A stretch of DNA of 64,000 nucleotides from Prorocentrum cordatum (GCA_963575745.1 CAUYUJ010000036.1:1-64000); one strand, 5' to 3'; counted from the first letter of the stretch, positions 7,868-61,808 are shown. Notes: generated by a model from the letters alone, not told the origin. Numbers and translations are program-made.

Positions 7868-10800
7868 TTACGAGCCCGAAGACGACTGCCAAAACTTGGC
7901 CTGCAAACGGGCCACGAGCGCATCCATTCGAGGATTCCGAATGATGGCAGCAGTGACGGAGGAGGAGGAGGAGACGTCCGCCCACCCAGCCGTCCCACCC
8001 ACCAACCGCCGAATGAGGTCGGACTCGAGAGGGGTCGGCGCCTGGAGGGTCTCCTCACGCCGACGCGAGTGCGGGTGAAGCCCAGCCTCCAGGCGCCGTC
8101 GATCATACGCCCGCTGGGGCGTCAAGGCAGGGCGACAAGTCTTGAAGAGGGCGCCACTCGACCTCTCCTCTGCATAGGCCCCGCATTTACAGCAATACAC
8201 TAGGACCTGATCGCGTGCCGTCCAGCACGCCCTCAGGACGTGGCCGCCCACCCCTTCACACTCACGCAACTTTACAAGGAGCGGAGGGGGGCCTGGGCAC
8301 TGATTGAGGGGTCGCTCGTCCTGCTCAGGGCAAGCCCCAAGGCACCGAGCACAACGCAACTTCCAACTCCCCACACGACACCACTCGTGCCACGACACAA
8401 CACGCGTTATGCTCGGCACCTTGATCTTCTTAAAGGATGGGAGCGGGAAAGCGGGAAGGACCGCCGCCGCCACACGAATGGCGGCGCGGAGGCGTTTGAC
8501 CATAAGCCCATGCAACTCCGAGGTGGCGGGAGGGGCACGGGGGTGGAGGGAAAGGGCATCCTTGGCTAACAAATCGGCCATCTGGTTGCCACGCGCGATC
8601 CTTTCCTCATCAGGTGGGAGCGCGGAGATGACTTCTTCAGAGCGATGGGCACGGGTATGACTAACGTGCCCGATGTGTGCGTGCCCTGGATGCTGGAGCG
8701 CACCACGGCGCAGACCAGCAAAAACTTGGGAACCGTTAAGCTGGGCGGGGGCAGGCTTTTGAGTCAAGCGCACAGCGCCCAAACAATCGGAAAACGGCCT
8801 CGTGGTCCCTGGGCCCCGTTGGAAGATGGAAAGCATAGCTAGGGCAAGGTGTTCGGCGGACGGCGCCGTCTGGGGTAAGGACTCCCAAACCACACCCTGC
8901 ATCCTACATCGGACTTCGCACTGCTCAGAATTCTCCAGAAAGACCGCGGCATAAGCCGCTCGATTGAGACGGGCGAATTCAGTTCGAGTTGCACTGCCGT
9001 CAACACAAACATCACATCCCGCGCTGAGCTCCTGGAAGGTCTCCTGGGACACAGGGTTGCCCTGGGCATCCTGGAAGACAGGGAACAACTCAGAGGAGGG
9101 AGGAGGGAACTCGTCGGGGCGAGGTTGGAACACCAGGAGCCTGGACCACAGGAGATCTCCGGGCTCCTCGCGCGCATCAGCTGCAATCTCTGCCGACGTC
9201 GCCTCATCCCTAGCGGCGGCCACAGCAGGGCAGCACCAGAGACGATGATGAATTGAATCTGGCTGGGAGCACAAGGGGCATAGACCTGTTGATTCAAAGC
9301 CATGCTGCACAAGGCGGTCCTCGGTCCACATGCCCCCAGCAAAGACGGAGGCTACAACATGCTTTTGCAGCGCCGAGAATTTCTTAGAACGGACAGCTTG
9401 GACAATCAAATCTGCGGCAACCTCCTGCCCCTGCCCCTGCGTTAGAGTGGCAGCAAAGCAACGGCCATGATGGCGAAGAATACTAGCATGCAACTGCTTG
9501 GCAAGCAAGGCAGGAGAGGTGAAAAACAAATCATGCTCTATCTGGTTGTCATCGAAGAAGGTCTTAAAGTTGGTGAACTTCCATCCTAGGCGATGCAAAC
9601 ACAACATGGCACGGTGAATGGGGCCTGCACTCTTATTCCACTGCGACTGCTGCAAGACTGGAGACTTCGCGGCTACAGCATCCCACGTCTTCTGCAAGAA
9701 CCTCCACGAGAGCACAACACGATCAGGATGCACAATTGAGTTCCATACTGCCTTGGAATATTGAATGACGGGCGCCACTGCTACCTTCCACGCTGGGTCA
9801 TCATACAGGAGCATACGAGCGGGTAGCGAGCCTCCTCGGAACGGGACGAGGGCACGTCGTAAAACCAACAACTCTCTCTCCGTCATGCCAGTGACGAGGG
9901 AGCCGTACGTAGTCGCAGGGCGCACTCCAGATATATATATCTTGTGAAGTCTGGCCTTGCCAACAGAGAGCCGTCGTCGTAGCGAACGCAGGAAGCCAAC
10001 ACGTCTCTTCATAGCTCGAAACCGTTTCTTCATCCGACACGTAGCGCCAGGCGCAGCACGAGGACGAGCAGGAGCAAAGTCAGCACCGAGCGCAGTGGCA
10101 GAGGTCGTAGCAGCCGCTGAGCGAGCACCGATACGAGCAAGCCGTCGATCGAGGTCACGAACGACATCATGGGAAGACCCAAAGACCACCGCCTTGTCGT
10201 GGGCGAGGCCAACCTGGAGCTCCTCCCTATAAACGGTGACGAGGTCCTGGGCGGCCTCCACGAGGGCTGGTACGAGGTCTTGTCGGGGGCCCGTCATGGA
10301 AACGCAGTCGTCATCAACGTACACGCCGAGGTCCAAGCGGGGGTGCCGCGCCACGAAACCATCTAGGGCCCCGAGGAGGTAGATCTGCACGAAGGCGTCA
10401 TTGAACACGTCGCCAGCTGGCAACCCAGAGCGGGCAAACTGCACAAGAGGACAGTGATGGGCTCCCAGTCGAACCAGGCGGGGCCCCCTCCAGAAGTTGA
10501 ACAGGACCTTGACTAGGGGCCGCGGGAGCCCGCACGCCAGCGCACGATCACGCAGGAGCTCCAAGTTAAACGACTCATAGAACTTGAGGCCATCCCACAG
10601 AAACCCCGCCGTCTCTTGGTCGATAGCCTGGCCACGTTCAGCGCGGACCGCCGCAAGCCACACTGCCTCCTCAGCTCCCCTGCCTTTTCCAAAGGACCAG
10701 TACTTGCGGGAGGACGCTTCCAGGAAGGGCTCCACAAGAGGGCGGCGTGCCTTTTCCCACACTCGCACAAAGGACGCGACGAGCAAAATTGGGCGGTAGC

Positions 10801-12598
10801 CGCCTTGCGGCTTCTCAAGCAGTGGAAAGAGGAGCCAGAGGAGCTGGGCAGGAAACAAGCCGAGGCGCTCCGAGCACGTGAAAATAATACTGAGCTGCAC
10901 GAGCGCTGTGTCGCTGAGCATCTCGACATGCCGTGGGTGAAAACCGTCTAGGCTTTGGGCCGTGGATTCCGAGAAAGTCCGAGCCGCCGCACGCAACTGC
11001 ACACACGTGAGAGCGTCCAGAGCCTCGCGATCGGGAATCCACGCCTCAGGAGGCTCCACCTCCGCATGCCAAAAACCTCCGAGCTTCACGGTCTCCTCCT
11101 GTACTAACTGACACGGCTCAGACGTAAACGACCCAGGGACCGAGGAGGAGACCGTGGGCTCCCACAGCTTCTTGATGCGGGTCAGGCGATGCATGCGCCT
11201 GGCCGAGCCGCTGAGCGCCAAGATGTGCCACTCCTTCCAGGAGCGGTCTCTGGCTTTGGAGTGCTCCGCCTGGACTTCATCACATTCCGTGGCGAGCTCC
11301 TCCGCGAGCGCATCAGCAGTATCCCACCACTCGCTGTCCCCAGGCAAATGCGGAGACCATTGAGTGAGCAGGAGGCGTACTGACGCCAGCGAGCGGTCCA
11401 GGCGGGCGCACAAGCCCTCCCCCGCGTGCGAAACTCGCACCGCCAGGAGATGGTGAGCGCCTTCACCCGAGACCCAATCAACATCATCACGACGCGTGAG
11501 AGACAAAAACTCACTGAGCATACCGCACATCCATTGCCAACAGTTAGCCACCAGCGTGCCATCATCGGGCTCCTGTCGGCGATGGACGATAGGCTCCCAG
11601 ACTGACTGCACGCGAGCTCCTCGCCACCCCGCACGGGTGGTGGGGAGATCGCAAACGTCAAGTAACTCCTGCTCGGCAGCATTGGCAAAGAGAGACCACA
11701 CTTCATTCATGAGAGCCCAGGCCTCCTGAGAGGAGCCATGCTCAGACAAAAACTGCAGCTTGGGCAGGAGGCGCTCTGACAACGCCCACGGGGGAGGGGG
11801 ACGAGGACAGCCGATCGGGAGGTGGGTGGGGATTCGACTGTGACGCCGAAAGACCAACTGACGGACCTGAAGTGCATTAGCACGCAGCTCAAGCAAAACA
11901 GGACGGTGCGGTCTAACATGCCACGTGCTGTCCACAAAGATGCTGGCAGCCAGCGTAGACAGAGCATGCCCTACAACGAAGAAATCAATCGTGGACGTAG
12001 ACGAACTGGTACGGCAGGTGATTGCAGCAGGCGCCATGATGACGGCCTTGACCTTCTGCACAAAGCCCGTGGCCTCGACGGCGGCAGGTGAGTTGTTCCA
12101 ATCTGCCGCAATGACCGTGAGCGGAGGCTGGATGATCTTGGCGCCGATCGCGCTGAGCATGGACAGATTCTTCTCACGCATGCCGTCATTGACGTGGAAA
12201 TAGGCACACACGATGTTGAACGAGAAACCAGGGAGGTCAATGGTAACCTGTATGGCACGATGTGGCACAATAGCCTTGCACGCTGGGTCAGTCCATCGCA
12301 AGCCAAACCCATCACGAACAAAAACTCCAACCCCAGCCGAGCACCTCTGCGTCGCGGGGTTGAAGGACGACTCACTGATGAGGAATCGCCAGCCCAGGGC
12401 GCGCACCGCGGCCAGGGACTGGGGCGCTGTGAGCTCGGACAAGCCAAGCTCCTGGGCGCACACGATGACACTGGTAGTCGTGGTGAGCCGCTCACGTAGC
12501 GTGGACCACCCAGAGCCATTGAAAGTCTCGATGAACTGTGTCGCCGTCGATGTCGGCGGCAACTTCTTCCTGCAAATCGGGGGTATTGGTAGCCTCAT
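7868..12598 (-). CDS. LINE ORF2: APE endonuclease, RT, CCHC zinc finger, RNase H and C-terminal Cys/His fingers (~1576 aa from the first in-frame ATG after ORF1)
   Basis: APE: TFNG, CAQE, GVGVFV, CAYF, ADWN, TIDFF, PHRPV. RT: LDGFHP, GYRPI, DGLKFYE, GLPAG, YVDD, ALG. Zn finger: CPLC..HHRLWCC. RNase H: VDGS, SAE, SDC, RAH, GNQMAD. Confidence 0.93.
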   Translation of the reverse strand: MRLPIPPICRKKLPPTSTATQFIETFNGSGWSTLRERLTTTTSVIVCAQELGLSELTAPQSLAAVRALGWRFLISESSFNPATQRCSAGVGVFVRDGFGLRWTDPACKAIVPHRAIQVTIDLPGFSFNIVCAYFHVNDGMREKNLSMLSAIGAKIIQPPLTVIAADWNNSPAAVEATGFVQKVKAVIMAPAAITCRTSSSTSTIDFFVVGHALSTLAASIFVDSTWHVRPHRPVLLELRANALQVRQLVFRRHSRIPTHLPIGCPRPPPPWALSERLLPKLQFLSEHGSSQEAWALMNEVWSLFANAAEQELLDVCDLPTTRAGWRGARVQSVWEPIVHRRQEPDDGTLVANCWQWMCGMLSEFLSLTRRDDVDWVSGEGAHHLLAVRVSHAGEGLCARLDRSLASVRLLLTQWSPHLPGDSEWWDTADALAEELATECDEVQAEHSKARDRSWKEWHILALSGSARRMHRLTRIKKLWEPTVSSSVPGSFTSEPCQLVQEETVKLGGFWHAEVEPPEAWIPDREALDALTCVQLRAAARTFSESTAQSLDGFHPRHVEMLSDTALVQLSIIFTCSERLGLFPAQLLWLLFPLLEKPQGGYRPILLVASFVRVWEKARRPLVEPFLEASSRKYWSFGKGRGAEEAVWLAAVRAERGQAIDQETAGFLWDGLKFYESFNLELLRDRALACGLPRPLVKVLFNFWRGPRLVRLGAHHCPLVQFARSGLPAGDVFNDAFVQIYLLGALDGFVARHPRLDLGVYVDDDCVSMTGPRQDLVPALVEAAQDLVTVYREELQVGLAHDKAVVFGSSHDVVRDLDRRLARIGARSAAATTSATALGADFAPARPRAAPGATCRMKKRFRAMKRRVGFLRSLRRRLSVGKARLHKIYISGVRPATTYGSLVTGMTERELLVLRRALVPFRGGSLPARMLLYDDPAWKVAVAPVIQYSKAVWNSIVHPDRVVLSWRFLQKTWDAVAAKSPVLQQSQWNKSAGPIHRAMLCLHRLGWKFTNFKTFFDDNQIEHDLFFTSPALLAKQLHASILRHHGRCFAATLTQGQGQEVAADLIVQAVRSKKFSALQKHVVASVFAGGMWTEDRLVQHGFESTGLCPLCSQPDSIHHRLWCCPAVAAARDEATSAEIAADAREEPGDLLWSRLLVFQPRPDEFPPPSSELFPVFQDAQGNPVSQETFQELSAGCDVCVDGSATRTEFARLNRAAYAAVFLENSEQCEVRCRMQGVVWESLPQTAPSAEHLALAMLSIFQRGPGTTRPFSDCLGAVRLTQKPAPAQLNGSQVFAGLRRGALQHPGHAHIGHVSHTRAHRSEEVISALPPDEERIARGNQMADLLAKDALSLHPRAPPATSELHGLMVKRLRAAIRVAAAVLPAFPLPSFKKIKVPSITRVVSWHEWCRVGSWKLRCARCLGACPEQDERPLNQCPGPPPLLVKLRECEGVGGHVLRACWTARDQVLVYCCKCGAYAEERSSGALFKTCRPALTPQRAYDRRRLEAGLHPHSRRREETLQAPTPLESDLIRRLVGGTAGWADVSSSSSVTAAIIRNPRMDALVARLQAKFWQSSSGS

Positions 12599-12642
12599 AC
12601 ACGACAACGGCAGGCCACAGACCCGCGGGTGTACTGCACCAT
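12595..12642 (-). CDS. 15-codon inter-ORF mini-ORF MVQYTRGSVACRCRV; its stop overlaps the ORF2 ATG (ATGA)
   Basis: ACCATGG start 8 nt after the ORF1 TGA; the codon walk ends gtA-TGA, overlapping the ATG at 12598. Confidence 0.4.
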   Translation of the reverse strand: MVQYTRGSVACRCRV

Positions 12643-12650
12643 GGTGAGGA

Positions 12651-13712
12651 TCACCCCCGCCGCTGCTTCTTGGTGACGAGGCCGAGGGACTTGAACAACT
12701 CCTGGAGCTCCCGTTTGTCACCAGCAAACTTGGTAGTGGAGATGACCTGGGAGATGCCTTCCTCGTCGACGTCAAGGTACACATCATCATCCTCAGGGAC
12801 GGGAACCGATTCACCATAGTCGGTGCCCTCATCCCCGACGGTTGGGCCAGCGGCGGCTGCCTGGGCGGCAGCAGCCGCACGCACAGCCTCCTTGAACTTG
12901 TCAAAGACAGGCGACTCCACCATGGCCTTGAGGTCGGCGTCGGCCTCCAGCACGGTGGTCGGGAGGTCGGGCAGCACGAAGGAGGTAGCATCACTCCCTT
13001 CAGGGCGCAGGTCCTTAGGGCAAGACTCGCGCAGCTCCTCCTGGAGGGTAGCCACCAGGTCCTTGGCGGCCAGCACCTTGGCCCTGAGCTCACGGAGGTG
13101 CTCCTCGGCGGCCTCGACGACCTTGACCTGCGCACTGACGTCGGACTCGAGCTTCTGATGGCGCTTGATCGCATCCTGCAGCTTGTGCCCGAGGGTGGTG
13201 TGGCGTGCAAGTTGTGGCTTGGCATCATTCCGAGCCTTGCGCGCCGCGGCCAGAGACTGCTCGGCACTGACACGGCTGGGGACGTCAGCGCCCAAGCCAG
13301 ACTTGGCGAACTGGGTAACGATACCTTCCCAGCGCTGTACCTCAAGATCGAGCGGATCGGGCGGAGGCGCAGGCACGGGAGTGGGCACGGCCTGGGACTT
13401 CTGGAGGGCGGCGTACTTGCGCTTGAGCTCGGCGAGCTCACGGGCGATGCCACCATCCACACTGCCTGGCGGTCCTGCCGCCCACGCACTCCCAGCACGG
13501 CGGCGACCACCTGCAGCCCCAGGAGCATGAGACGGCCCACCGGCTTCCATCTGCTTGGCCGCCTTGCGCGCCTTGTCTGCGACAGACTGCGGGGCAGGGC
13601 GGCCGCATCGGCACCGAATGCGCGATGCATAGTTGGCGGACGCGCCGCAGGACGGGCAGCCCCAGAAGGGGCGGGTCGGTCCTGGCAGCACATCATGAGC
13701 GGGACTGGCCAT
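12651..13712 (-). CDS. LINE ORF1 (353 aa): RanBP2-like zinc finger, coiled coil and acidic tail
   Basis: WGCPSCGASANYASRIRCRCG finger; long predicted-helical A/E/K/L-rich region; ends KKQRRG; lies directly upstream of ORF2. Confidence 0.85.
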   Translation of the reverse strand: MASPAHDVLPGPTRPFWGCPSCGASANYASRIRCRCGRPAPQSVADKARKAAKQMEAGGPSHAPGAAGGRRRAGSAWAAGPPGSVDGGIARELAELKRKYAALQKSQAVPTPVPAPPPDPLDLEVQRWEGIVTQFAKSGLGADVPSRVSAEQSLAAARKARNDAKPQLARHTTLGHKLQDAIKRHQKLESDVSAQVKVVEAAEEHLRELRAKVLAAKDLVATLQEELRESCPKDLRPEGSDATSFVLPDLPTTVLEADADLKAMVESPVFDKFKEAVRAAAAAQAAAAGPTVGDEGTDYGESVPVPEDDDVYLDVDEEGISQVISTTKFAGDKRELQELFKSLGLVTKKQRRG

Positions 13713-15318
13713 CCACCTGTGCGGGGGTGGATGGGAGCGAAAGAAAAGGCTCGCAGGCGCGCTGCCGCTCCGAAGAATGGCACCTGCAAGGCGCGCGAGA
13801 AACCTCGCGAGCCCGAAGCGGCTAGGAGGAGGAGGAGGAGGAGGAGGAGGAGGAGGAGGAGGAGGAGGAGATGGAGGAGGAGGCAGGAGGAGGAGGCCCC
13901 GCTCCAGCGCGGTGCGGTGCACAGCGTCTGCGGCCCTGGGTGCCGAAAACCATGCTCGGCGGCGGGCGATGGGGGGGGAAATGAGACGGGGCGGGCCTTG
14001 TCAGAGGGCTCGGAAGCCCCCCCCCGGCCTTCTGAGGAGTTCTCTGAACCTTCCCCGAAGACGCCAGAAGCCTCAGCAGGCGCGAGGGGTTCTGAGGAGT
14101 CCCGCCGCCCTCTTGAGAGGGCCTTCTCCCTCTCACCTCCCCCCCTCGCTCGCCGCCGATACATGCACCGTGCCACCGCGTGCACGACGGGCACCCTCTG
14201 CGACCGCGCCTTCCCCTCCTCTCTTCCAGGCTGCTTCTCGTCCCTCCCCAGCTCTGCCCCCCCCCCCCCCCTTCCTCCTCTCCTCCTCCTCCTCCTCCTC
14301 CTCCTCCTCTCCTCCTCCTCCCTCCTCCTCCTCCTCCTCCTCCTCCTCCTCCTCCACTGCCTTCCCTGTCCCTTCTTCTCCTTTTCCTCCTCCTCCTCCT
14401 CCTCCTCCTTCTGTTCCGCACTTCCCTGACCCTCCCACTCCGCGCCCTTGTGCCCTTGCTCCTCCTGTTCCTCCACCTCCCCCTCCTGCTGCCCATGTTC
14501 CTCCTTGTGCCAGTTCCATCCGCCTCATCAGATTCCTCCTCCTCCTCTTTTTCCTCCTCCTCCTCTTTCTCCTCCTCCTCCTCCTCCTCCTCCTCCTCCT
14601 CCTCCTCCTTCTCTTCCTCATCTTCCTTTTCCTCATGTCCCCTCCTCCTCCCTCCTCCTCCTCCTCCGCCTCTTCCTCCGCCTCAGTCTATCCCACCCAT
14701 GGTAGCGATTGCTGTACATCGAAATGTGCACGCCTGCTCCGCCACCTGGCCGGCCGACAGGACGTTCCTTCCCACCTGCCCAAGCAACGAAATAACAAGT
14801 CAAGCTTGTTCCGTCTCGACACGGACGGACATTGCGCCGTCCGTGTTGCAAAACGCGTGGCGGGAACGGGGCGGGTCGCACATCCCGCGCGAGAGGCCGA
14901 CACATCGCTCCCGCATCGGCGCCGCGCTCATCCCTCTAGAGGCTGAAGTCTGCCCGAAAGTGACGCTCCCGCCCTCGTGCGCGCTGCGCCGAGGAGGGAG
15001 ATCAGCGGCAGGGGGAGGAGGGGGAGGAGGGGGAGGGGGAGGAGGAGGAGGAGGAGGAGGAGGAGGAGGAGGAGGAGGAGGAGGAGGTGGAGGAGGAGGA
15101 GGAGGAAGGAAGGAGGAGGAGCCCCCGCGCCGGCGCGGCCCGCGCGGGCTTCGCTTCGCCGAGTCGTCGGTGAGGGGGCCGCACGCGAGCGCCCGATCTC
15201 AAGACGTGCCCCGCTCGAGTCCTCGACTGCGGGAGGGAGGGCGGGAGCAGGCGGGGCCCTCCGACTCTCGCTCGAGCTGGCCAGCTGGGCTCCCCGCGAA
15301 CTGGGCTCCCACTCCTAC

Positions 15319-17672: not shown

Positions 17673-17739
<67 letters not shown>

Positions 17740-18792
17740 AGCATCATCATTCTCATTATCATACTCATGATTATCAGCACCACCACCACCACCATCATCA
17801 TGATCATGATCATGATCAGGATCATCATCAGCACCATCATCATCATCATCATTATCATCATCATCATCATCATCAGCAGCATCAGCATCATCATCATCAG
17901 TATCATCATTGTCATCATCATCATCATCATCATCATGATCAGCATCAGCATCAGCATCATCGTCATTTTCATCAGCATCATCATGAGCAGCATCATCATC
18001 AGCAACATCATCATCATCATCCTGATCCTCATCCTCATCATCACCAGCATCAGTATCATCATCATCATCAGCAGCATCATCATCATCATCATCATCATCA
18101 TCACCATCATCATCGTCATCGTCATCAGCATCATCATCAGCAGCATCATCATTCTCATTATCATACCCATGATTATCAGCACCACCACCACCACCATCAT
18201 CAGGATCATCATCAGCACCATCATCATCATCAGCACCATCATCATCATCATCATTATCATCATCATCATCATCATCAGCATCATCAGTATCATCATCATT
18301 ATCATCATCATCATGATCAGCATCAGCATCAGCATCATCGTCATTTTCATCAGCATCATCATGAGCAGCATCATCATCAGCACCATCATCATCATCCTCA
18401 TCCTCATCCTCATCCTCATCATCACCAGCATCAGTATCATCATCATCATTATCAGCATAAGCATCATCGTCATCTTCATCACCATCATCATGAGCATCAT
18501 CATGAGCATCATCATCATCAGCACCATCATCATGAGCAGCATCATCAGCATCATCGTCACCACCATGATAAACGTTCTCCTTATCATCATCAACCACATC
18601 ATCACCACCGCCATCGCCAGCACCATCATCATACTCATCCTCATCATTAACATGACCATCATCAACATCATCATCATCGCCATGCTCATCTTTAACCGCC
18701 CTCACCAGCAGCAGCGACAGCAATATCCTCATTACCATCATCCTCAGCAGCAACAACACCATCACCATCATCATCATCATCATCATCATCAA

Positions 18793-18851
<59 letters not shown>

Positions 18852-19646
18852 GCACCATCACCGTCAACCGCAGCAGCAACCCGATCGCATGACGATCAAC
18901 ACCATCAAGAAAAGCAACACCATCATCACCATCATCATCAACTGCATCACCACACCCGCCACAAGCATCATCATCACCATCAGCATCATCATCATCGTCA
19001 TCGTGATCAGCAGCATCATCATCAGCATCATCATCAGCATCACCATCATCATCACCATCATCATAATCCCCAACACCATCGTCACCACCATCATCAGAAT
19101 CAGCAACATCATCATCACAACCACCATAGTCATTATCATCAGCATCACGATCACAATCAGCATTCCCAGATTTAGCATCAGCAACCTCATCATCATCCGC
19201 ATCCGCACCCTCAGTCTCCTCGTCCTCCTCCTCAGCAGCATCATCATACTCATCAGCAACCTCATCATCACCATCGTCAACATCATCATCAGCATCATCA
19301 TCATCACCATCAGCAGCATCATCACCAGGGTCACTATCATCAGCAGCATCAGCATCAGCATGATCAGCCCGATCATCAACAGCAGCAGCATCACCATCAT
19401 CATGCCATCCCCATACCATCCTCATCACCATCCTGAGCAGTACCAACGTCCTCCTCATCCTCCTCCTCCTTCTCCTCCCCCTCCTCCTCCTCCTCCACTT
19501 CCTCCTCCTTCTCCTCGCCACCATCGTCATCACCATCATCAGCAGCAACATCGTCGTCCTCCTCTCGCTCTCTCTCTCTCTTCCTCCTCCTCATCCTCCT
19601 CGTCCTCCTGCACCCTGCCTCCTCCTCACCATCATCATCACCATCG

Positions 19647-19715
<69 letters not shown>

Positions 19716-20765
19716 GCATCAGCATCAGCATCAGCATCATCATCATCCTCCTCCTCCTCCTCATCCCCCTCTCCTCCCTTCTCCCATCTCCCGTCTCATG
19801 TATCCCCTCCCCTCTCCTCTATTCCTCCTCCTCATCCTCCTCGTTTTGCTCCTCCTCCTCCTCCTTCTTCTCCGCCACCTCCTCCTCCTCCGCCTCCTCC
19901 TCCTCCTCCCTCCTCCCTCATCGTTCCTCCATCCGTCCTCCTCCTCCTCCTCCTCCACCTCCTCATCCTCCTCCTTTTCCCCCTCCTCCTCCTCCTCCTC
20001 CTCCCTCCTCCTTCCGCCTCCTTCCGCATTCCCATTGCCCCTCCCCCTTCCTCCTCCCTTCTCCTCATTCTCCTTCCCCTCCTCCTCCTTCTCCTCTCCT
20101 CCTCCTCCTCCTCGTCCTCCTCCGCCTCCGCATCTTCCTCCTCCTCCTCCTCCGCCTCCTCCTCCCTCTTCCCTCCTCCCTCTTCCCCCCGCCCTCCTCC
20201 CTCCACCCTCCGTCCCTCTGCCTCATTCCTCCTTCCTCCCTCCTCCCTCCTTCGTCAGTCCTTCGTCTCTCCACCCTTCTTCCCCCATTCCTCCTCCACC
20301 TGCCTCCTGCCTCCTTTCTCCTCCTCTTCTTTCGCTTTCCTCTGTCCTCAGTCTCCTCCTCCTCCTCCTCCCCTCATTCCTCCTCCTCATTCTCCGCAAA
20401 AATCCTTTCCTCCTCCTCGCTCCTCATCCTCCTCCTCCTCCTCTTCCTCATCCTCCTCCTCCTCCTCCTCCCTCCTCCATCCTTCCTCCTTCCGCCTTCC
20501 TCATTCCTCCCTCCTCATTCCGCCTTCCTCTCTCCACCATCCTCCTTCCCGCCTTCTTCATGTCCTCCCTCGTCCCCCCTTCCTCCTTCCTCCTGAATCC
20601 TCCTCCTCCCTCCCTCCCTCCCTCCCTCCCTCCCCTCCTCCCTCCAAGAAATCCCTCCCTCCCTCCTCCTCCTCCTCCTCCTCCTCCTGGGGGGGCTCCT
20701 CTCCTCCTCCTCCTCCTCAGCATCATCATCATAATCATCAGCAGCAGCAGCAGCATCAACAGCAG

Positions 20766-20798
<33 letters not shown>

Positions 20799-20806
20799 TC
20801 ATGCGG

Positions 20807-20837
<31 letters not shown>

Positions 20838-20960
20838 ATCATCATCATCATCGTCATCTATCTCATCATCATCATCATCATCATCAATCATCATCTCATC
20901 ATCAATCATCATCAGCATCATCATCATCATCATCATCATCCATCATCATCACATCATCTC

Positions 20961-20993
<33 letters not shown>

Positions 20994-21023
20994 CATCATC
21001 ATCACATCAGCATCATCATCATC

Positions 21024-21056
<33 letters not shown>

Positions 21057-21126
21057 GCATCATCATCATCATCAGCAGCGCAGCACCAGTACAGCATCAG
21101 CACAAGCAGCATCATCATCATCATCA

Positions 21127-21185
<59 letters not shown>

Positions 21186-21779
21186 CTCCTCCTCATCATC
21201 ATCATCCTCCCCCCTCCTCCTCCTGAATCCTCCGCATCATCATCATCCCTTTCATCCTTCTTATTCTCCTCCTCCTCCTCCTTATCCTCCTCCTCCTCCT
21301 CCCTCCTCCCTCCTCCCTCCGTCCTCCTTCCTCCTTCCTCCCTCCTACTTCCCTCCATATTCCCTCAGTGTTATCTCCTTCTTCCCTCCTCCCTCCTTCC
21401 CGCCCGTCCCCCTTCCTCCTGCCTCCTGCGTCCCTTCGATCCTACCACCTCCTCATCCTCCTCCTCCCCCCCCTCCTCCTCCTCCTCCTTCTCACCTCCT
21501 CCTCCTCCTCCTCCTCCTCCGCCTCCGCCTCATTCCTCTCCGTATCCCGCACATCCTGCTCTTCCTTCCTCCTCCTCCTCCTCCGCCGCCCTCTTCCTCC
21601 TCCTTCCCCTTGCCGTTTCATTCATCCTCCTCTCCCTCCTCCCTCCTCCTCCTTCTTTCCTCCTCCATCCGTCCCCCTTCCTCCCTCCAACTGCTCTGCC
21701 GCCTCCTCCTCTTCCTCATTCCCCTGCAGTCCGTGATCATCCTCTTCATCCGTCCGCCTCCTCCTCCTCCTCGTCATCG

Positions 21780-21821
<42 letters not shown>

Positions 21822-21858
21822 GCATCAGCATCAGCATCAGCATCAGCATCAGCATCAG

Positions 21859-21912
<54 letters not shown>

Positions 21913-22024
21913 CATCATCAGCATCATCATCATCATCATCACCATCATCATCAGCATCATCACCATCATCATTATCATCATCATCGGCAGCATCATCATC
22001 AGCAGCATCATCATCACCACCACC

Positions 22025-22061
<37 letters not shown>

Positions 22062-22133
22062 TCATCATCCTCATCATCAGCAGCAGCAGCATCATCATCA
22101 TCATCATCAGCCGCATCACCAGCCTCATCATCG

Positions 22134-22169
<36 letters not shown>

Positions 22170-22247
22170 GCCTCTTTATCGTCGTCGTCGTTGTCGTCGT
22201 TGTCGTCGACATCGTCGTCGTCGTCAGCAACAGCATCATCAGCATCG

Positions 22248-22283
<36 letters not shown>

Positions 22284-22299
22284 CCATCATCACCATCAC

Positions 22300-22358
<59 letters not shown>

Positions 22359-22776
22359 CCATCATCATCACCATCATCACCATCATCATAATCATCAGCG
22401 TCATCAGCATCATCATACTCCTCATCATCATCATTAGCATCATCATCAGCATCAGCATCATCATCACCATCACCAGCATCATCATCCTCATCACCAGCAT
22501 CATCATCACCAGTATCACCAGCATCAGCATTGTCATCATCACCATCATCATCACCAACATAATCAGCATGATCACCAGCAGCCGCAACAGCATCAGCATT
22601 AGCAGCACCATCAACAACACCATCACCATCAGCATCATCATCATCACCACCCCCATCATCATCATCATCATCAGCACCATCATCATCATCATCGTCAGCA
22701 TCGCCGTCGTCATCATCATCATCAGCACCAGCACCAGCATCAGCATCAGCATCAGCATCAGCATCAGCATCATCAG

Positions 22777-22858
<82 letters not shown>

Positions 22859-27730: not shown

Positions 27731-27940
27731 CCGGTGATCCGGTGATCCGGTGATCCGGTGATCCGGCGATCCGGTGATCCGGTGATCCGGTGATCCGGTG
27801 ATCCGGTGATCCGGTGATCCGGTGATCTGGTGATCCGGTGATCCGGTGATCCGGTGATCCGGTGATCCGGTGATCCGGTGATCCGGTGATCCGGTGATCC
27901 GGTGATCCGGTGATCCGGTGATCCGGTGATCCGGCGATCC
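27731..27940 (+). repeat. (CCGGTGAT)n 8-mer array, ~26 units
   Basis: Direct observation. Confidence 0.95.
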
Positions 27941-28059
27941 TGTTAACAGGCGGAGTGCAACCGCAGGAGGTACGCCTGCGGCAATATGAAGCACGACCCG
28001 GACGTCTCTCGGCCAAGCCGACCGACAGAGGGCACGACGGCGTAGATCGCTCGGGCGGG

Positions 28060-28772
28060 CCGGATCACCGGATCACCGGATCACCGGTTCACCAGATCAC
28101 CGGACCCCTGGATCACCGGATCACCGGATCACCGGATCACCGGATCACCGGATCACCAGATCACCGGATCACCGGATCACCGGATCACCGGATCACCGGA
28201 TCACCGGATCACCGGATCACGGGATCACCGGATCACCGGATCACCGGATCACCGGATCACCGGATCACGGGATCACGGGATCACCGGGTCACCGGATCAC
28301 CGGATCACCGGATCACCGGATCACCGGATCACCGGATCACGGGATCACGGGATCACCGGGTCACCGGATCACCGGATCCACCGATCACCGGATCACCAGA
28401 TCCGCCGGATCGCCGATCATCGGGATCACCGGATTACTGGATCACCGATCACCGGATCACCGGATCACCGATCACCGGATCACCGATTCACCGGATCAAC
28501 ACGGATCAACCGGATCACGATCCACCGATCACCGAACACCGATCACCGATCACCGGATCACCGGATCACCGGATCACCAGACCACGGGATCACCGGATCA
28601 CCGGATCACCAGATCACCCGATCACCGGATCACCGGATCACCGGATCACCGGATCACCAGACCACCGGATCACCGGATCACCGGATCACCAGATCACCAG
28701 ATCACCGGATCACCGGATCACCGGATCACCGGATCACCGGATCACCGGATCACCGGATCGCCGGATCGCCGG
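28060..28772 (-). repeat. (ATCACCGG)n 8-mer array, reverse complement of the 27731 array, longer and more degenerate
   Basis: Direct observation. Confidence 0.95.
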
Positions 28773-28959
28773 GCGACCGGCGGGCGGGCGCCGAGTCGGT
28801 CGGCGGGACGGGCGGGTCGGGTCGGGCGGGTCGGCCGGCGATTGCCAATCCAGGGAGGCCCCGCCTGAGCGAGGACAGTATCGGTCATCCATGTTGATTG
28901 TTCGGTTTCGTGCCCCTCCCGCTGCCCACAGAGGCCCCCGACGCAGCGCGCAGAGGCCC

Positions 28960-29230
28960 CAGACGCAGCCTCACGGGTCCGCGCCACGCTACTCACACGT
29001 TTCGTGGCCCCCCATGGGGAGGCTCCGCCGCCCATGTCGGCATACCCCTCACACGTTTCGTGGGCCCCTGGGGAGCTCTACTTCAGATGCAGTGGCGCAG
29101 TTTGCCGGCATGGCCCTGACAAGTTTCGTGGACCAATGGGGAGCTCCACCGAAGATCCACTGGCGCAGTTTGCTTGCGTGCCCGCCGCTCACTTCGGCAT
29201 ACCTCTCACACGTTTCCGGGCCCAGGCCTG
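28960..29230. repeat. Diverged tandem units with core ctcacacgtttcgtgg..ggggag
   Basis: Core recurs about four times. Confidence 0.65.
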
Positions 29231-29926
29231 CGGTCACGGCCGCCGCCGCCGCCGTCGTTGTCGTCGCCGTCCTCGTCGCCGCCGCCGCCGTCCCCGCCGT
29301 CGCCACCGCCACCGCCGCCGCCGCCGTGATCGTCGTCGTCGTCGCCGTCGTTGCCGCCGTCGTGGCTGTCGTCGTCGTCGTCGCCCCCGACGTGCAAGGT
29401 TGAATGCGCCCATGGGGCCCATTCAGGCCCCGGGGTCCACAGACACGAGCCCGCGGAGCAATCGATATCGGAGACGGGTCGAGAGCCTCCGGGGAGCCGC
29501 CGGGAGCGTTGGTCGCGCCCGGGGCGGGGCGGCCCGCGCGGCCCCGGACGCAAGCGCCAAGGTCGGTGCGCCACAGCTCGGAAAACTGGTGCGCCGAACC
29601 CATGCGGGAGCCCTTCCCCGCGGGGCCGCCACATCATGTCAGTAATCCGAGCGGGTCGTTCCCAACCTTGTAACTGTCCTTACTTTTTTGGGCTTCTGAG
29701 CCTTGAATAGGGGGAGTATCAGGCGCGAGCCCCGCCCCAGATGTCAGGTCCAGCGCGGGCCTCCGAGGTTGAAAGCCCCGTTGTGTCCTGAGTAGCTCCC
29801 CCGGCCGCGTGCGGCGGTCAAGGGGGAGTTACCGGGTCGTGCTGGCGCAGAGCTTGCGTCACCACGGGAAGTGGCCACCTGTGCGTTTCCGATCCTCCCC
29901 TCCTGCTTCCAACCTTGTCGTCCTCG

Positions 29927-30754
29927 GCGGGAGACGGAACTTGACAGGGTTCACTCTCCCGCGTGCGTGTGGTCTGGGGAGGGAACTTGAAAAGGTTCCC
30001 TCTCTAGCTGCGGGAGAGGGAACTTGAAAAGGTTCACTCTCCCGCTTGCGGTCGGCCTGAAGGGGGAACTTGAAAAGGTTCACCCTTCAGTCGCGGGAAG
30101 GAGAACTTGCAAAGGTTCACTTTCCCGCTTGCGGTCAAACTGGAGAGGGAGCTTGAAAAGGCTCACTCTCCAGGCGTGGGAAAGGGAACTTGAAAAGGTT
30201 CACTTTCCCACTCTTTTGTTGGGTCTGGAGAGGGAGCTTGAAAAGGCTCACTCTCCAGGCGGGGGAAAGGGAACTTGAAAAGGTTCACTCCCCCCCTCTT
30301 TTCTTGGGCCTGGAGAGGGAACTTGAAAAGGTTCACTCTCCAGGCGGGGGAAAGGGAACTTGAAAAGGTTCACTTTCCCCTCGTTTCTTGGTTTGGAGAG
30401 GGAGCTTGAAAAGGCTCACTCTCCAGGCGGGGGAAAGGGAACTTGAAAAGGTTCACTTTCCCCTTCTTCTCTTGGGTCTGGAGAGGGAACTTGAAAAGGT
30501 CCACTCTCCAGCCGCGGGAAAGGGAACTTGCAAAGGTTCACTTCCCCCCCGGAGAAGGAACTTGAAAAAGTTCACTCTCCAGCCGCGGGAAATGGAACTT
30601 GCAAAGGTTCACTTTCTCGCCTGCGTTCGAACTGGAGAGGGAACTTGAAAAGGTTCACTCTCCAGGCAGGGGAAGGGGACTTGAAAAAGTTCACTTCCTC
30701 TCTCTTTTCTTGGATCTGGAGAAAAAAATAGGGAACTTCTAAAGGTTCACTTCT
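29927..30754 (+). ncRNA. Candidate structured RNA or retroposed element: 20 tandem stem-loops with core GAACTT-GAAA-AGGTTC
   Basis: Compensatory stem changes, a conserved U.G pair and GAAA/GCAA loops; followed by an A-rich tail. The repeat itself is certain; RNA function is inferred. Confidence 0.55.
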
Positions 30755-30762
30755 ACACACGA

Positions 30763-30845
30763 TTAATAAAAAAAAAAAATAAAAAAACAAAAAAAACTAA
30801 TAAAATAAAAAAAAAGAAATAAAAAAAAAAAGAAACTAGAAAAAA

Positions 30846-30888
<43 letters not shown>

Positions 30889-30890
30889 TA
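30763..30890 (+). repeat. ~125-nt interrupted poly(A) tract
   Basis: Direct observation; begins ttAATAAA; the only long A-tract in the window. Confidence 0.9.
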
Positions 30891-31081
30891 AGGTGTCCCG
30901 GAGGCTCCCGATTGAGATTCCATCGCAATCCACTCAGAGACGGGGCTCCCGCTCGAGACCCTGCACGGTGAGTACGTGAGTGTGCGAGTGCGTGAGTGAG
31001 CGAGTGAGTGAGTGAGTGAGTGAGCGAGTGAGTCAGTGAGTGATGATGGTGATGGTGATGGTGATGATTATGATGATGGTG

Positions 31082-31113
<32 letters not shown>

Positions 31114-41972: not shown

Positions 41973-42355
41973 CTCCTCCTCCTCGGCCTCCTCCTCCTCC
42001 TCCTCCTCCTCCTGATCCTTCGCCTCCTTCTCCTCCACCTCCCCCTCCTCCTTCACAAGCGCCACCCTCGTGCCAGCTGTGCCGCAGTGAGCCTCGCCTG
42101 TGCCCCAGCGTCACCCGCCCGCAGCTCGGATCCGAGACGCCGCCGACAGAACTCGAGTAGGGGATCGACTGCAGAATCGATGTGCCCCAAGCTTGATTCG
42201 TTCGTCGCGTCCACGAGACATGCGCAGACCGTTCGTAGACCGGCGAACATTATACGTGTGCCTCGACGGGGAGATCAGCGTCGGGGTATAACATCAACTC
42301 TGTAGACGATCCCCTGCTTCGAGAAGCAACGCGTTGGCTCCCCCGAGCTCCGCAC

Positions 42356-42476
42356 CAGCGCGGAGCAGTCGGCCACCCACGCGTCGCAGATGCGGCGGCA
42401 CACGGGGACCGTGCGCCCGCTGGCGCAGCCCTCGAAGGCCATCAGGCAGATGAAGCTGCGCAGCGACGCCCGGCAC
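42356..42476 (-). CDS. Exon of Frizzled-type Cys-rich domain gene: CRASLRSFICLMAFEGCASGRTVPVCRRICDAWVADCSAL
   Basis: Acceptor gcccag|G in phase 2; Cys spacing C-x8-C-x6-C-x8-C-x3-C-x6-C matches the FZ CRD; probable donor CTG|gt (3' boundary uncertain). Confidence 0.75.
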
Positions 42477-42927
42477 CTGGGCGGCGAGGATCGAGGCGGC
42501 CAGGCTTTCGCCTCGCAGGCCTTCGACGCTTTCGAAGCTTCCGGTATTTCGGGGGTTCGCCGAACAGAACACTCGCGTTCGAAGTGGTTCGGTGTCGGTG
42601 TTCGGCTTCTCGTGCCTTGGCTGGCGCCTCGAAGTCTCGAGGTGTGCGGTCTCGGTGTTCGGGGTTTCGGTTTCCGGCCTCTGGAGTTTCAAACACCAAA
42701 GCTCGAGATTCAAAGTTCGAGGCTTTCGGGACCCGGAGTCGTGTCCCCCGAGGCTTCCCAGACTCGGGGTGCGTTTTCCAGCAGCTGCGCTTCGCTGAAC
42801 CGCCGCCCGAAGCCCGAGCTATGTGGCCCGGTTGCTGCCTGGAGTGTACACGTCGCGGCGTTTCTCCGCAGCTTCAGCCTCCGCAGGGGCCCTTTCTGGG
42901 GCCATCCACAGCGGGTCCGGGACGAAA

Positions 42928-51184: not shown

Positions 51185-51834
51185 TTTCTCCCTGTCGCAC
51201 CCACATGCCAGTTCTTAGGGCGGGCGGAGCGTTTCGCCAGAGCCTTCCTCACCATGTATGACCCTGCAGCTAAAAAATGACAACAATTTCACGGATGGAG
51301 GGCGGGCCGTTTTCAAAATGTGGCTCTCGCCTCAGCGCCGCGCACATTCGTTTTAAGAATTCGCCAGAGTTTAACGGATTGGGGGCGAGTGATTTTCAAA
51401 CTGTGGCTCTCGCCTTAGCGCTGCGCGCATTCCTTTTAAATATTTGCAAAAGCTTCACGGATTAAGGGCAAGTTGTTTTCAGAATGCGGTTGTCGCCTTA
51501 GCGCCGCGTACATTCGCTTTTCTTATAAGTTTAAGAGTTTCACTGACTGAGGGCGGTTCCTTTTCAAAATGTGGCTCTCGCCATGGCGCCGACGAGCTTC
51601 GTTTTAAACTTGACAAGAGTTTCCCGGAGGTCCATGATCAGCGCACTGGAAATGATATTTTGGAAGGATTCCGGAGCATGGGGTTGCAACGGGTATGTTG
51701 ATTCGCAGTTTTCAGAACCAACAGATGGCGTTCTGGCACGATTCTGGACCTTCAAGACGCAACAGTCAGGATGATCTGTGTGGGGGGAGGGTGTATTCCA
51801 ACATCGTTGATGACTCTTGGGTTTACACTGGTCC
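51185..51834 (+). mobile_element. (CCT)n-flanked composite element, copy 3
   Basis: tttctccctgtcgcaccc ... tcttgggtttacactggtcc running directly into (CCT)n. Confidence 0.8.
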
Positions 51835-61123: not shown

Positions 61124-61808
61124 GGACCAGTGTAAACCTAAGAGTCATCAACGATGTTGGAATAAACCCTCCCACCAGACTCCCTCCTCATAGGCCCCTA
61201 CAACGGTTCAGTTCCACTAACGGCACTGCCTGGTTCGAAGACAATGTTTGAAGGTCCTGAAACATGCCAGAGCATTGTTCTCGGGATTCCAACGCCACGG
61301 ATCAACCTGACTGATGCGTCTTGACAATCCTGAATCGTGCAAGGACGCCGTTCCTGGGATATCAACACCACGAACGAACGTAACTGTTGCACCCTCATAA
61401 TCCAGAACCGATCCCAAACACAAGTTCTGATACGCTGATCATGGGAACCCGTGAAGCTCTTGCATATTGGTTTTGAAAAGAATGCGCGCGGCACTAAGGC
61501 GAGAACCGCATTTTGAAAAGGAACCGCCCTCAATCCTTGACCTCCTTCAAATTTTGAAGGCGAATGCACGCGGCGCTAAGGGGAGAGCCACATGTTGAAA
61601 ACGATTCGCCCTCAATCCGTGACAATCTTGCAATGTTTAAACAAATATGCGCGGCGCCAGAGCGAGAGTTACATGGTGAAAACGACCCGCCCTCTATCTG
61701 TGAAGCTGTTGCAACTCTTTAACCTTCAGGGTCACCAATGGTGAGGAAGTCTCAAGCGAAACACCTGGCCCGCCCTAAAACTGGCCTCGGGGTGCGACAA
61801 GGAGAAAT
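61124..61808 (-). mobile_element. (CCT)n-flanked composite element, copy 5 (head-to-tail with copy 4)
   Basis: ggaccagtgtaaacctaaga ... ggggtgcgacaaggagaa. Confidence 0.75.

What the first reader, a model, noticed from the sequence alone, without database searches (positions are those of the whole stretch)
29927..30890. Array of 20 covarying, mostly GNRA-capped stem-loops followed by an A-rich tail: candidate undescribed structured RNA or SINE
Seen: each unit folds as outer stem, G.A mismatch, then GAACUU[GAAA]AGGUUC, and two stem types alternate (CTGGAGAG/CTCTCCAG and GCGGGAAAG/CTTTCCCGC; ~85-nt dimer). Variation is largely compensatory: GAAC/GTTC becomes GAGC/GCTC in three units, CTGGAGAG/CTCTCCAG becomes CTGAAGGG/CCCTTCAG, GCGGG/CCCGC becomes GTGGG/CCCAC, and U.G becomes U-A in two units. 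18 of 20 loops are GAAA or GCAA; the first and last units deviate. Established: GNRA tetraloops and G.U pairs are RNA-structure hallmarks and here work only on the + strand, which is also the strand carrying the ~125-nt A-tail. Inference: a multi-hairpin RNA (protein-binding scaffold or LINE-mobilised SINE) rather than a plain minisatellite. I do not recognise it as a described family.
Basis: partly seen in the sequence, partly recalled or inferred. Interest (0 to 1): 0.85.

Follow-up and report, generated by a model that had tools for sequence, protein, structure and literature searches.

The report
Tandem hairpin repeat of a dinoflagellate
This is a real run of twenty small hairpin-forming repeat units in a dinoflagellate-like genome whose stems are kept paired as they evolve, but it is not a SINE, and whether the hairpins act as RNA or only as DNA remains untested.

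Summary
There are 20 units, all on the + strand at 29925-30760 (0 expected). Two stem types alternate in an 83-nt dimer. 18 of 20 loops are GAAA or GCAA, and a 130-nt tract with 111 A follows.

Pairing is kept more than chance allows, also under a unit-tree null: 92.6% of cells paired against 79.4±3.9 (0 of 2000 replicates).

The family is dispersed. A metagenome contig (L004) and 5 predicted peptides carry related arrays in other flanks, with the same four hairpin types in the same order. Between loci the hairpins are 250/276 identical and the linkers 43/71.

The SINE reading fails:
- no tRNA-like head
- no target-site duplication
- no A-tail in 0 of 3 other copies whose 3' flank is visible
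- no shared 5' end

The claim that the fold works only on the + strand is weak. Single-sided changes give 12 G·U against 9 A·C.

The host is probably Prorocentrum-like.

My best reading is a hairpin-unit minisatellite family under a fold-preserving constraint, probably acting as + strand RNA. That last step is inferred: I obtained no read data. The main rival is a purely DNA-level repeat.

The parts
29925..30760 (+). Tandem array of 20 hairpin units. A-type (CTGGAGAG/CTCTCCAG) and B-type (GCGGGAAAG/CTTTCCCGC) alternate. Steps between cores are 37 and 46-48 nt, so the dimer is about 83 nt.
29925..29964 (+). Unit 1, the edge unit: loop GACA and a C/C mismatch at pair 11/30. The near-identical copy P0013 reads Arg where the window reads Thr at this codon. 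A G at this position, which would restore the pair, fits that but is only inferred from the peptide.
29971..30130 (+). Units 2-5: a four-type block (A; B with GGGAGAG stem; A* with CTGAAGGG stem; B with GCAA loop). The same order occurs twice in metagenome contig L004 and in peptides P0014 and P0016.
30137..30514 (+). Units 6-14: A/B dimers, mostly with a pyrimidine-rich 11-13-nt linker (TCTTTTCTTGGGY type). The three GAGC/GCTC units lie here at steps of 85 and 168 nt, in line with amplification of a higher-order unit.
30512..30704 (+). Units 15-19: more degenerate units, two with GCAA loops and two with U-A in place of U.G. One junction has no linker.
30721..30760 (+). Unit 20, the edge unit: the outer stem is broken by an A-run, the loop is CTAA, and it folds at only -5.0 kcal/mol.
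30757..30897 (+). A-rich tract (111 A in the 130 nt examined, interrupted by T, G and C). It is the only such tract in the window. It abuts the 3' end of the array on the strand that gives the more stable hairpins.

Best explanation
The region is one array of a dispersed tandem-repeat family, a hairpin-unit minisatellite, in a Prorocentrum-like dinoflagellate genome.

Anatomy. The unit is a 34-nt hairpin. Its inner part is nearly constant: a G/A mismatch, a 6-bp stem with one U.G, and a GAAA or GCAA loop. Its 8-9-bp outer stem differs between at least four old unit types but stays complementary in each. Two hairpins sit 2 nt apart, followed by an 11-13-nt linker, which gives the 83-nt dimer.

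Growth. The array grows and shrinks by unequal exchange or slippage of dimers and higher-order blocks. This is inferred from the 83-nt and 253-nt periods and from the degenerate edge units.

Shown:
- The fold is kept beyond what the relatedness of the units explains.
- Between loci the hairpins change much less than the linkers.

Inferred. The constraint acts on a folded single strand. The most likely carrier is a + strand transcript in which the repeated, near-identical GNRA-capped hairpins serve as many binding sites for one protein, a multivalent scaffold or sponge.

The A-tract. At this locus the A-rich tract may be what is left of a poly(A) tail from a retroposed transcript copy. It is not a feature of the family, and the element is not a SINE.
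For: - Array and hairpins are real.
- Pairing within the window: 92.7% of 300 cells pair, against 82.9±1.2 in shuffles (0 of 500) and 34-64% when the partner columns are slid.
- Pairing across loci: over 28 units (20 from the window, 8 from L004) there are 346 Watson-Crick, 43 G.U and 31 unpaired cells, with 11 extra Watson-Crick pair types. Pair 4/37 shows all four types.
- Phylogeny-aware null, with substitutions re-placed on the unit tree in 2000 replicates: paired 92.6% against 79.4±3.9 (0 of 2000); extra pair types 11 against 4.75±1.7 (1 of 2000); summed mutual information 4.60 against 1.50±0.49 (0 of 2000). Paired columns changed on the same branch 11 times, and 9 of those kept the pair.
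- Unit types predate the split of the loci: L004 units group with window units by type on the tree.
- Constraint on the hairpins. Mean pairwise identity is 0.94 for the inner stem and 0.87 for the loop, against 0.67 for the outer stem. Between the window's units 2-5 and the two L004 blocks, hairpins are 250/276 identical and linkers 43/71 (Fisher p 1.4e-8).
- The + strand RNA is more stable by 73 kcal/mol, and in 17 of 20 units.
- In the near-identical copy P0013 (152 of 165 residues the same), four amino-acid changes fall in hairpin codons. For three of them the single-base change I infer restores a pair, keeps a GNRA loop, or turns U-A into U.G (the DNA is inferred from the peptide).
- The only A-rich tract in 64 kb lies at the + strand 3' end of the array.
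- A 2098-aa LINE-like ORF without stops lies in the same window.
- One relative, P0016, comes from a EukProt data set that also holds a peptide within 90% of a P. cordatum LINE protein. If that set is a transcriptome, which I did not verify, the array is transcribed.
Against: - I obtained no evidence of a transcript.
- The strand argument is thin. Apart from the inherited U.G at pair 17/24, single-sided changes give 12 G.U (tolerated on +) against 9 A.C (which would be G.U on -), so there is no bias.
- The - strand also folds at z -13.9.
- d(GAAA)-type loops are also stable in DNA hairpins (recalled, not tested here).
- Many covarying cells trace to few events: the A/B split, and the GAGC variant seen three times.
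- The unit tree rests on 40 columns that include the paired ones, so the null is rough.
- The two L004 blocks are not independent, and one 10-nt insertion adds 10 of the linker mismatches.
- Array ends differ between copies and the edge units are decayed, as in ordinary satellites.
- The surroundings are a patchwork of simple repeats. No Pfam domain was found in the 93 ORFs scanned, apart from one weak Fz hit below its cut-off about 12 kb away.
- No target-site duplication supports retroposition.
Confidence: 0.4

Rival explanations
1. A purely DNA-level palindromic minisatellite with no RNA role. The two arms of each unit are kept complementary by the mutation process itself, or by amplification bias. 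In the first case, template switching during replication, or hairpin-templated repair of quasi-palindromes, copies a change from one arm onto the other. In the second, units that fold well as single-stranded DNA slip and amplify more readily. The constant core then reflects homogenisation between units.
For: - Typical satellite anatomy: 83- and 253-nt periods, decayed edge units, and arrays with different ends and flanks.
- Both strands fold far better than shuffles.
- Single-sided changes show no strand bias, 12 G.U against 9 A.C.
- Some core changes perfect the palindrome: A29 to C in u02, and U.G to U-A in u16 and u19.
- Strand-switching duplications are visible nearby and in a relative. 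Octamer arrays lie head to head at 27731-27950 and 28059-28781. L004 has a 119-nt inverted repeat, 97% complementary, with a 35-nt loop.
- Template switching is reported to create and maintain hairpins with apparent compensatory changes (PMC8794818; I saw the search listing and the start of the abstract only).
- 3 to 5 of the 11 double changes are transversion-type (G-C to U-A, C-G to G-C) and cannot pass through a wobble intermediate.
Against: - Template switching alone keeps arms complementary but lets their sequence drift. Here hairpins are 250/276 identical between loci against 43/71 for the linkers.
- The G/A mismatch stays in 19 of 20 window units and the U.G in 26 of 28 units across all four unit types, while neighbouring pairs underwent double changes. 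Arm-to-arm copying should erase them.
- An unrelated 83-bp satellite in the same window shows no excess structure, z -1.55. Hairpins are therefore not a general property of this genome's repeats.
Confidence: 0.33
2. A DNA element that acts in a folded or protein-bound DNA form. It could be an array of cruciform- or hairpin-prone sites, or quasi-palindromic binding sites (GAACTT n4 AGGTTC) for a dimeric DNA-binding protein. It would serve in chromosome organisation or replication in the dinoflagellate nucleus.
For: - The constant 19-nt core is a quasi-palindrome repeated 20 times at regular spacing.
- Hairpins are conserved against linkers.
- Both strands can fold.
- The region has no recognisable genes.
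Against: - A duplex binding site does not explain why the outer stems covary.
- Nothing here shows cruciform extrusion or a binding protein.
- Only one array occurs in 64 kb. Very few relatives turned up in the collections searched: 1 of 70 metagenome loci and 6 peptides.
Confidence: 0.12
3. One reading: a SINE or VNTR-composite retroposon, mobilised by a LINE through its A-tail. The hairpin array would be the body of the element.
For: - The only A-rich tract in 64 kb abuts the array's 3' end on the + strand.
- A 2098-aa LINE-like ORF with endonuclease and reverse-transcriptase similarity lies 16 kb away.
- Arrays occur in several unrelated flanks.
Against: - No tRNA gene, and no Rfam match at gathering score, in the window.
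- No target-site duplication of 10 nt exact, 12 nt with 1 mismatch, 14 with 2 or 16 with 3, within 1.1 kb upstream. Control positions gave a mean of 0.85 hits.
- 0 of 3 other copies with a visible 3' flank carry an A-tail: L004 ends in mid-unit, P0014 runs into a T-rich flank, and P0016 into a GC-rich flank.
- 5' flanks are unrelated.
- The resident LINE copy ends in (CTC)n, not poly(A).
- No relic of the recalled dinoflagellate spliced-leader motif lies upstream.
Confidence: 0.05
4. Arms or subterminal repeats of a foldback-type or other DNA transposon, whose ends are built of tandem short repeats.
For: L004 shows two arrays head to head around a 35-nt centre.
Against: - The window's array has no inverted partner. 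All 20 units are on the + strand, and the best covariance-model hit outside the array scores 14.1 bits.
- No transposase-like ORF turned up among the 93 ORFs scanned.
- The L004 palindrome could be an assembly artefact.
Confidence: 0.05

Closest known systems
Dyad-symmetric (palindromic) satellite and minisatellite DNA (recalled class; no specific family matched)
   Same: Head-to-tail units with higher-order periods, decayed array edges, and arrays dispersed in different flanks. Each unit is an inverted repeat able to form a hairpin or cruciform.
   Different: A near-constant GNRA-capped inner hairpin with a conserved G/A mismatch and a U.G pair. Outer stems covary across at least four old unit types. 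Hairpins are conserved against linkers between loci.
Xist A-repeat and similar tandem hairpin modules in long non-coding RNAs (recalled)
   Same: Works like: many copies of a short conserved stem-loop separated by pyrimidine-rich linkers, which gives a multivalent protein-binding platform.
   Different: No sequence relation, and no evidence here of a transcript or a binding protein. The host is a dinoflagellate and the array sits among simple repeats.
SINEs and VNTR-composite retroposons such as SVA (recalled)
   Same: A tandem-repeat body followed by an A-rich tail, in a genome that carries LINE-like elements.
   Different: No pol III-type head, no target-site duplication, no shared ends, and no A-tail in the other copies.
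Hairpins created and maintained by replication template switching (PMC8794818; search listing and start of abstract seen)
   Same: Apparent compensatory changes in the two arms of a hairpin can arise from one mutational event without selection.
   Different: That mechanism does not predict hairpins that are conserved against linkers, nor lasting G/A and U.G mismatches.
Bacterial repetitive extragenic palindromes (REP/BIME, Correia-type; recalled)
   Same: Works like: short dispersed palindromic units, transcribed within longer RNAs, that fold as hairpins.
   Different: Eukaryotic host and long tandem arrays. 0 hits in 185,579 prokaryote species genomes to a two-core pattern.

Membership tests
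SINE / LINE-mobilised retroposon | Pol III-type head derived from tRNA, 7SL or 5S | tested here: not met
   ARAGORN found 0 genes in the window. Rfam gave 0 matches at gathering score in the window. Only weak matches appeared in 29600-31100, best E 0.076, all far below their cut-offs.
SINE / LINE-mobilised retroposon | Target-site duplication flanking the 5' end and the A-tail | tested here: not met
   No exact repeat of 10 nt or more. None of 12 nt with 1 mismatch, 14 with 2 or 16 with 3 within 28800-29940; control positions gave a mean of 0.85.
SINE / LINE-mobilised retroposon | Copies share a 5' end and a 3' A-tail | tested here: not met
   L004's similarity to the window is confined to the array. 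0 of 3 copies with a visible 3' flank (L004, P0014, P0016) have an A-tail. Only 1 DNA copy and 5 peptides were available.
SINE / LINE-mobilised retroposon | 3' end matching that of a partner LINE | tested here: not met
   The LINE-like copy at 7868-14164(-) ends in about 110 nt of unique sequence followed by (CTC)n. By eye its 3' end shows no hairpin units and no poly(A), and no core motif occurs outside the array.
Tandem repeat / minisatellite family | Head-to-tail copies with a defined period and higher-order structure | tested here: met
   TRF reports period 83 (9.4 copies, 81% matches) and period 253 (3.0 copies). Core steps are 37 and 46-48 nt.
Tandem repeat / minisatellite family | Arrays at several loci with different flanks and variable ends | tested here: met
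   L004; peptides P0014, P0016, P0017 and P0019; P0013 is the same or an allelic locus. The whole genome was not available for a census.
Structured RNA (any class) | Covariation that supports the helices beyond phylogeny | tested here: met
   0 of 2000 null replicates reach the observed pairing or mutual information, and 1 of 2000 reaches the number of pair types. The null is home-made and the tree rests on 40 columns.
Structured RNA (any class) | A transcript of the folding strand exists | not testable with these tools
One relative comes from a EukProt set whose data type I did not verify.
Structured RNA (any class) | Substitution pattern specific to one strand (G.U tolerated, A.C avoided) | tested here: inconclusive
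   12 G.U against 9 A.C cells outside the fixed pair 17/24.
Any Rfam family | Match at the family's gathering score | tested here: not met
   for the window. In L004 the only matches are miRNA-precursor models below their cut-offs, on its long inverted repeat.
Foldback-type transposon | Two inverted arrays of tandem repeats forming the ends of the element | tested here: not met
   In the window all 20 units are on one strand and there is no partner in 64 kb. L004 does show head-to-head arrays.

The most novel reading that the evidence does not exclude
The family is a previously undescribed dinoflagellate RNA module. It is a polyadenylated + strand transcript, or a UTR or intron segment, that carries tens of near-identical GNRA-capped hairpins. 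Each hairpin has a conserved G/A mismatch and a U.G pair, and the array works as a multivalent platform or sponge for a specific RNA-binding protein. Copies such as this one, with its A-tract, would have spread by retroposition of the transcript.
Probability: 0.3. Interest if true: 0.75.

Novelty: new member of a known kind. Interest (0 to 1): 0.5.

Why it matters
Dinoflagellates regulate genes largely after transcription, and their huge genomes are mostly unannotated repeats. A repeat family whose hairpins are kept folded and conserved across loci is a concrete, testable candidate for a structured RNA or a structured-DNA element in these organisms.

It is also a clean case for separating selection on structure from template-switch mutation as the source of 'compensatory' changes.

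If it turns out to be only a DNA-level satellite, it still warns that R-scape-style covariation in tandem palindromic repeats does not by itself prove an RNA.

Tried and rejected
Searches that gave nothing or could not run:
- Whole-genome search of the window's own assembly: none is held.
- Sequencing runs: no RNA holder was listed. The best holders were X1 (0.40 of the words) and X2 (0.34), with marine metagenomes at small shares that I did not lay.
I therefore have no read-level evidence on expression, array-length variation or other copies.
- Viral contigs: 4 single chance hits.
- Prokaryote genomes: 0 hits to a two-core pattern.
- Metagenome scan: 70 loci, of which 69 are single chance matches to the 19-mer (29 bits or less with the unit model). 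Only L004 is a relative.

Tests against other readings:
- Spliced-leader relic (motif recalled): 0 matches with up to 3 mismatches for the 21-mer. For a 15-mer, 1 match far from the array against 1.82 expected.
- Bacterial-type promoter and terminator scan: run, but not meaningful for a eukaryote.
- Coding reading: 83 is not a multiple of 3, and the ORFs across the array have no Pfam hit.
- Gene context: 93 ORFs around the array and 10 long ORFs gave only the LINE-like reverse transcriptase (below Pfam's cut-off) and a weak Fz hit.

Literature:
- The P. cordatum genome paper (PMC10666404, searched by terms, passages seen) has 0 occurrences of hairpin, palindrom or satellite.
- Searches for dinoflagellate, tandem repeat and stem-loop found nothing relevant among the 12 papers listed.
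- The core motif as a text string occurs in 0 papers.
- CCMP1952 occurs in 0 papers.
- Taxid 281790, taken from the EukProt name, is an unrelated fungus, so that number is not a taxid.

Not available: Dfam and Repbase.

Full report
**What is there.** Window 29925-30760 holds 20 copies of a 19-nt core. All are on the + strand and there are none elsewhere in the 64 kb; shuffles gave a mean of 0.00. Tandem Repeats Finder gives period 83 (9.4 copies, 81% matches) and a higher-order period of 253.

Each 40-nt unit folds in the same way: an 8-9-bp outer stem, a G/A mismatch, a 6-bp inner stem with one U.G, and a tetraloop. Two stem types alternate. The two hairpins of a dimer lie 2 nt apart, and dimers are joined by an 11-13-nt linker. 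Loops are GAAA in 15 units, GCAA in 3, GACA in unit 1 and CTAA in unit 20.

An A-rich tract follows at 30757-30897, with 111 A in the 130 nt examined. It is the only tract with at least 80% A or T over 40 nt in the window. A covariance model of the unit scores the 20 units at 36.8-64.2 bits; the best hit outside the array scores 14.1.

**Where it lies.** The window is eukaryotic, about 60% G+C, and packed with simple repeats; TRF returns 63 rows with score 150 or more, including a (CAT)n stretch of some 5 kb.

A 2098-residue ORF at 7868-14164(-) resembles reverse transcriptase: RVT_1 at E 2e-5, below Pfam's cut-off, plus a weak zf-RVT match. Its relatives carry PF00078 and PF03372. The best is 88% identical over 20% of the query and is named Prorocentrum cordatum by its source. 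The host is therefore probably a Prorocentrum-like dinoflagellate.

The 93 ORFs scanned around the array and elsewhere gave no Pfam domain, apart from a weak Fz hit about 12 kb away. The flanks of the array are unique within the window.

**Is the fold more than chance and more than relatedness?**
- Folding energy: the + strand folds at -458 kcal/mol (shuffles -322±8, z -17.4) and the - strand at -385 (z -13.9). An unrelated 83-bp satellite at 4152-4786 folds like its shuffles, z -1.55. Excess structure is thus a property of this repeat and not of the genome.
- Pairing in the window: 92.7% of 300 pair cells are standard pairs, against 82.9±1.2 in shuffles (0 of 500) and 34-64% when the 3' partners are slid by 1-3 columns. 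8 of 15 pairs show changes on both sides.
- Pairing with L004 added: I added 8 of the 9 full L004 units; m3 was dropped because of a 4-nt insertion in its 3' arm. This gives 346 Watson-Crick, 43 G.U and 31 unpaired cells, with 11 extra Watson-Crick pair types.
- Control for shared ancestry: because units are copies of each other, I built a unit tree and re-placed each column's parsimony substitutions at random on its branches, 2000 times. No replicate reached the observed pairing (92.6% against 79.4±3.9) or the summed mutual information (4.60 against 1.50±0.49). One reached the 11 extra pair types (mean 4.75). Paired columns changed on the same branch 11 times, and 9 of those kept the pair.

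This null is home-made and the tree rests on 40 columns.

**Relatives.** A scan of metagenome contigs for the core gave 70 loci, of which 69 are single chance matches. Only L004 (1224 bp) carries an array, with 8 full units on one strand and inverted units at its start. Its similarity to the window ends at the array borders.

Translating an open frame across the array (P0018) and searching two protein collections found six relatives in all:
- P0013 is colinear with the window's 5' flank and first eight units, 152 of 165 residues identical, so it is the same or an allelic locus.
- P0015 is the L004 peptide.
- P0014, P0016, P0017 and P0019 come from other contexts.

L004, P0014 and P0016 show the same order of four hairpin types as window units 2-5: A, B with a GGGAGAG stem, A* with a CTGAAGGG stem, and B with a GCAA loop. 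On the unit tree the L004 units group with window units by type. The types, and the compensatory differences between them, are therefore older than the split of the loci.

Between the window block and the two L004 blocks the hairpins are 250/276 identical and the linkers 43/71 (Fisher p 1.4e-8). The two L004 blocks are not independent, and one 10-nt insertion inflates the linker mismatches. Within all units the inner stem (0.94) and loop (0.87) are more conserved than the outer stem (0.67).

**Is it a SINE? No.**
- No tRNA gene and no Rfam match at gathering score anywhere in the window; only weak hits in the region.
- No target-site duplication, exact or with mismatches.
- No shared 5' end.
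- No A-tail in 0 of 3 other copies whose 3' flank is visible. L004 stops in mid-unit, P0014 runs into a T-rich flank, and P0016 into a GC-rich one.
- The resident LINE-like copy ends in (CTC)n and not in poly(A).
- No relic of the recalled spliced-leader motif lies upstream.

The A-tract is still notable, since it is the only one in 64 kb and sits exactly at the + strand 3' end. This particular copy may descend from a polyadenylated transcript, but that is a guess without a target-site duplication.

**RNA or DNA?** This stays open.

For RNA on the + strand:
- It is more stable by 73 kcal/mol overall and in 17 of 20 units.
- It has GNRA loops.
- The G/A mismatch and the U.G pair are conserved across all four types.
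- In P0013, four amino-acid changes fall in hairpin codons. For three of them the single-base change I infer restores a pair, keeps a GNRA loop or makes a U.G (inferred from the peptide only).
- One relative comes from a EukProt set that also holds Prorocentrum-like LINE sequence. I did not verify whether that set is a transcriptome.

Against:
- The strand features are inherited once and then copied. Independent single-sided changes split 12 G.U to 9 A.C.

The DNA-level rival is that replication template switching, or biased amplification of units that fold well, keeps the arms complementary (PMC8794818; listing and start of abstract seen). Strand-switch architecture nearby fits this rival: head-to-head octamer arrays at 27731-27950 and 28059-28781, and the 119-nt inverted repeat in L004. 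The rival does not easily explain why hairpins are conserved against linkers, or why the mismatches persist.

**Verdict.** This is a real, undescribed-looking family. It has no Rfam match, and the core string occurs in 0 papers. The P. cordatum genome paper has 0 occurrences of hairpin, palindrom or satellite in a term search. Dfam and Repbase were not searched.

I file it as a hairpin-unit minisatellite under a fold-preserving constraint, and not as a SINE. My odds are:

| Reading | Odds |
|---|---|
| The hairpins act as + strand RNA | about 0.4 |
| Purely DNA-level repeat | 0.33 |
| Functional DNA structure or binding-site array | 0.12 |
| Retroposon | 0.05 |
| Foldback-type element | 0.05 |

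The decisive data are strand-specific RNA reads and a genome-wide census of copies.

Noticed in passing
window 7868-14164 (-): A 2098-residue ORF without stops that looks like a non-LTR retrotransposon (reverse-transcriptase and zf-RVT similarity; relatives carry endonuclease and RT domains). It is 88% identical over 20% of the query to a protein named Prorocentrum cordatum by its source. Its 3' end is about 110 nt followed by (CTC)n, (GA)n and (TA)n, not poly(A).
   Followed up: partly
window 4152-4786, 51271-51628, 61569-61722 (inverted): A second, unrelated tandem repeat, also with an 83-bp period, present three times in the window. It shows no excess secondary structure, z -1.55.
   Followed up: partly
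window 27731-27950 and 28059-28781: Octamer microsatellites (CCGGTGAT)n and its reverse complement lie head to head around a centre of about 110 nt. The arms are up to 221 nt long and 93-96% complementary.
   Followed up: partly
L004 1-119 and 155-273: The metagenome relative carries a 119-nt inverted repeat (97% complementary, 35-nt loop) that places two hairpin arrays head to head. It could be a real foldback or an assembly artefact. It draws miRNA-precursor models below their cut-offs.
   Followed up: partly
window 17673-22858 and many other places: Very long trinucleotide arrays: (CAT)n of about 1705 copies, plus (TCC)n, (GAT)n, (GAG)n and (AGG)n throughout. There is strong GC skew between 14 and 28 kb.
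   Followed up: no
proteins P0016 and P0022 (EukProt set EP00959, labelled Pyramimonas sp. CCMP1952): This set holds both an array-derived peptide and a peptide in the 90%-identity cluster of a P. cordatum LINE protein. It therefore contains Prorocentrum-like sequence, whether by contamination or mislabelling. Its data type was not verified.
   Followed up: partly
window 42278-42688 (-): A weak Fz-domain match (E 8.4e-6, 26.8 bits, below the 32.1 cut-off). It is the only non-transposon domain hint among the ORFs scanned.
   Followed up: no
window 29038-29173: Two copies of a 68-bp unit (80% matches) about 750 nt upstream of the array, followed by a (GCC)n/(GTC)n run at 29239-29393.
   Followed up: no
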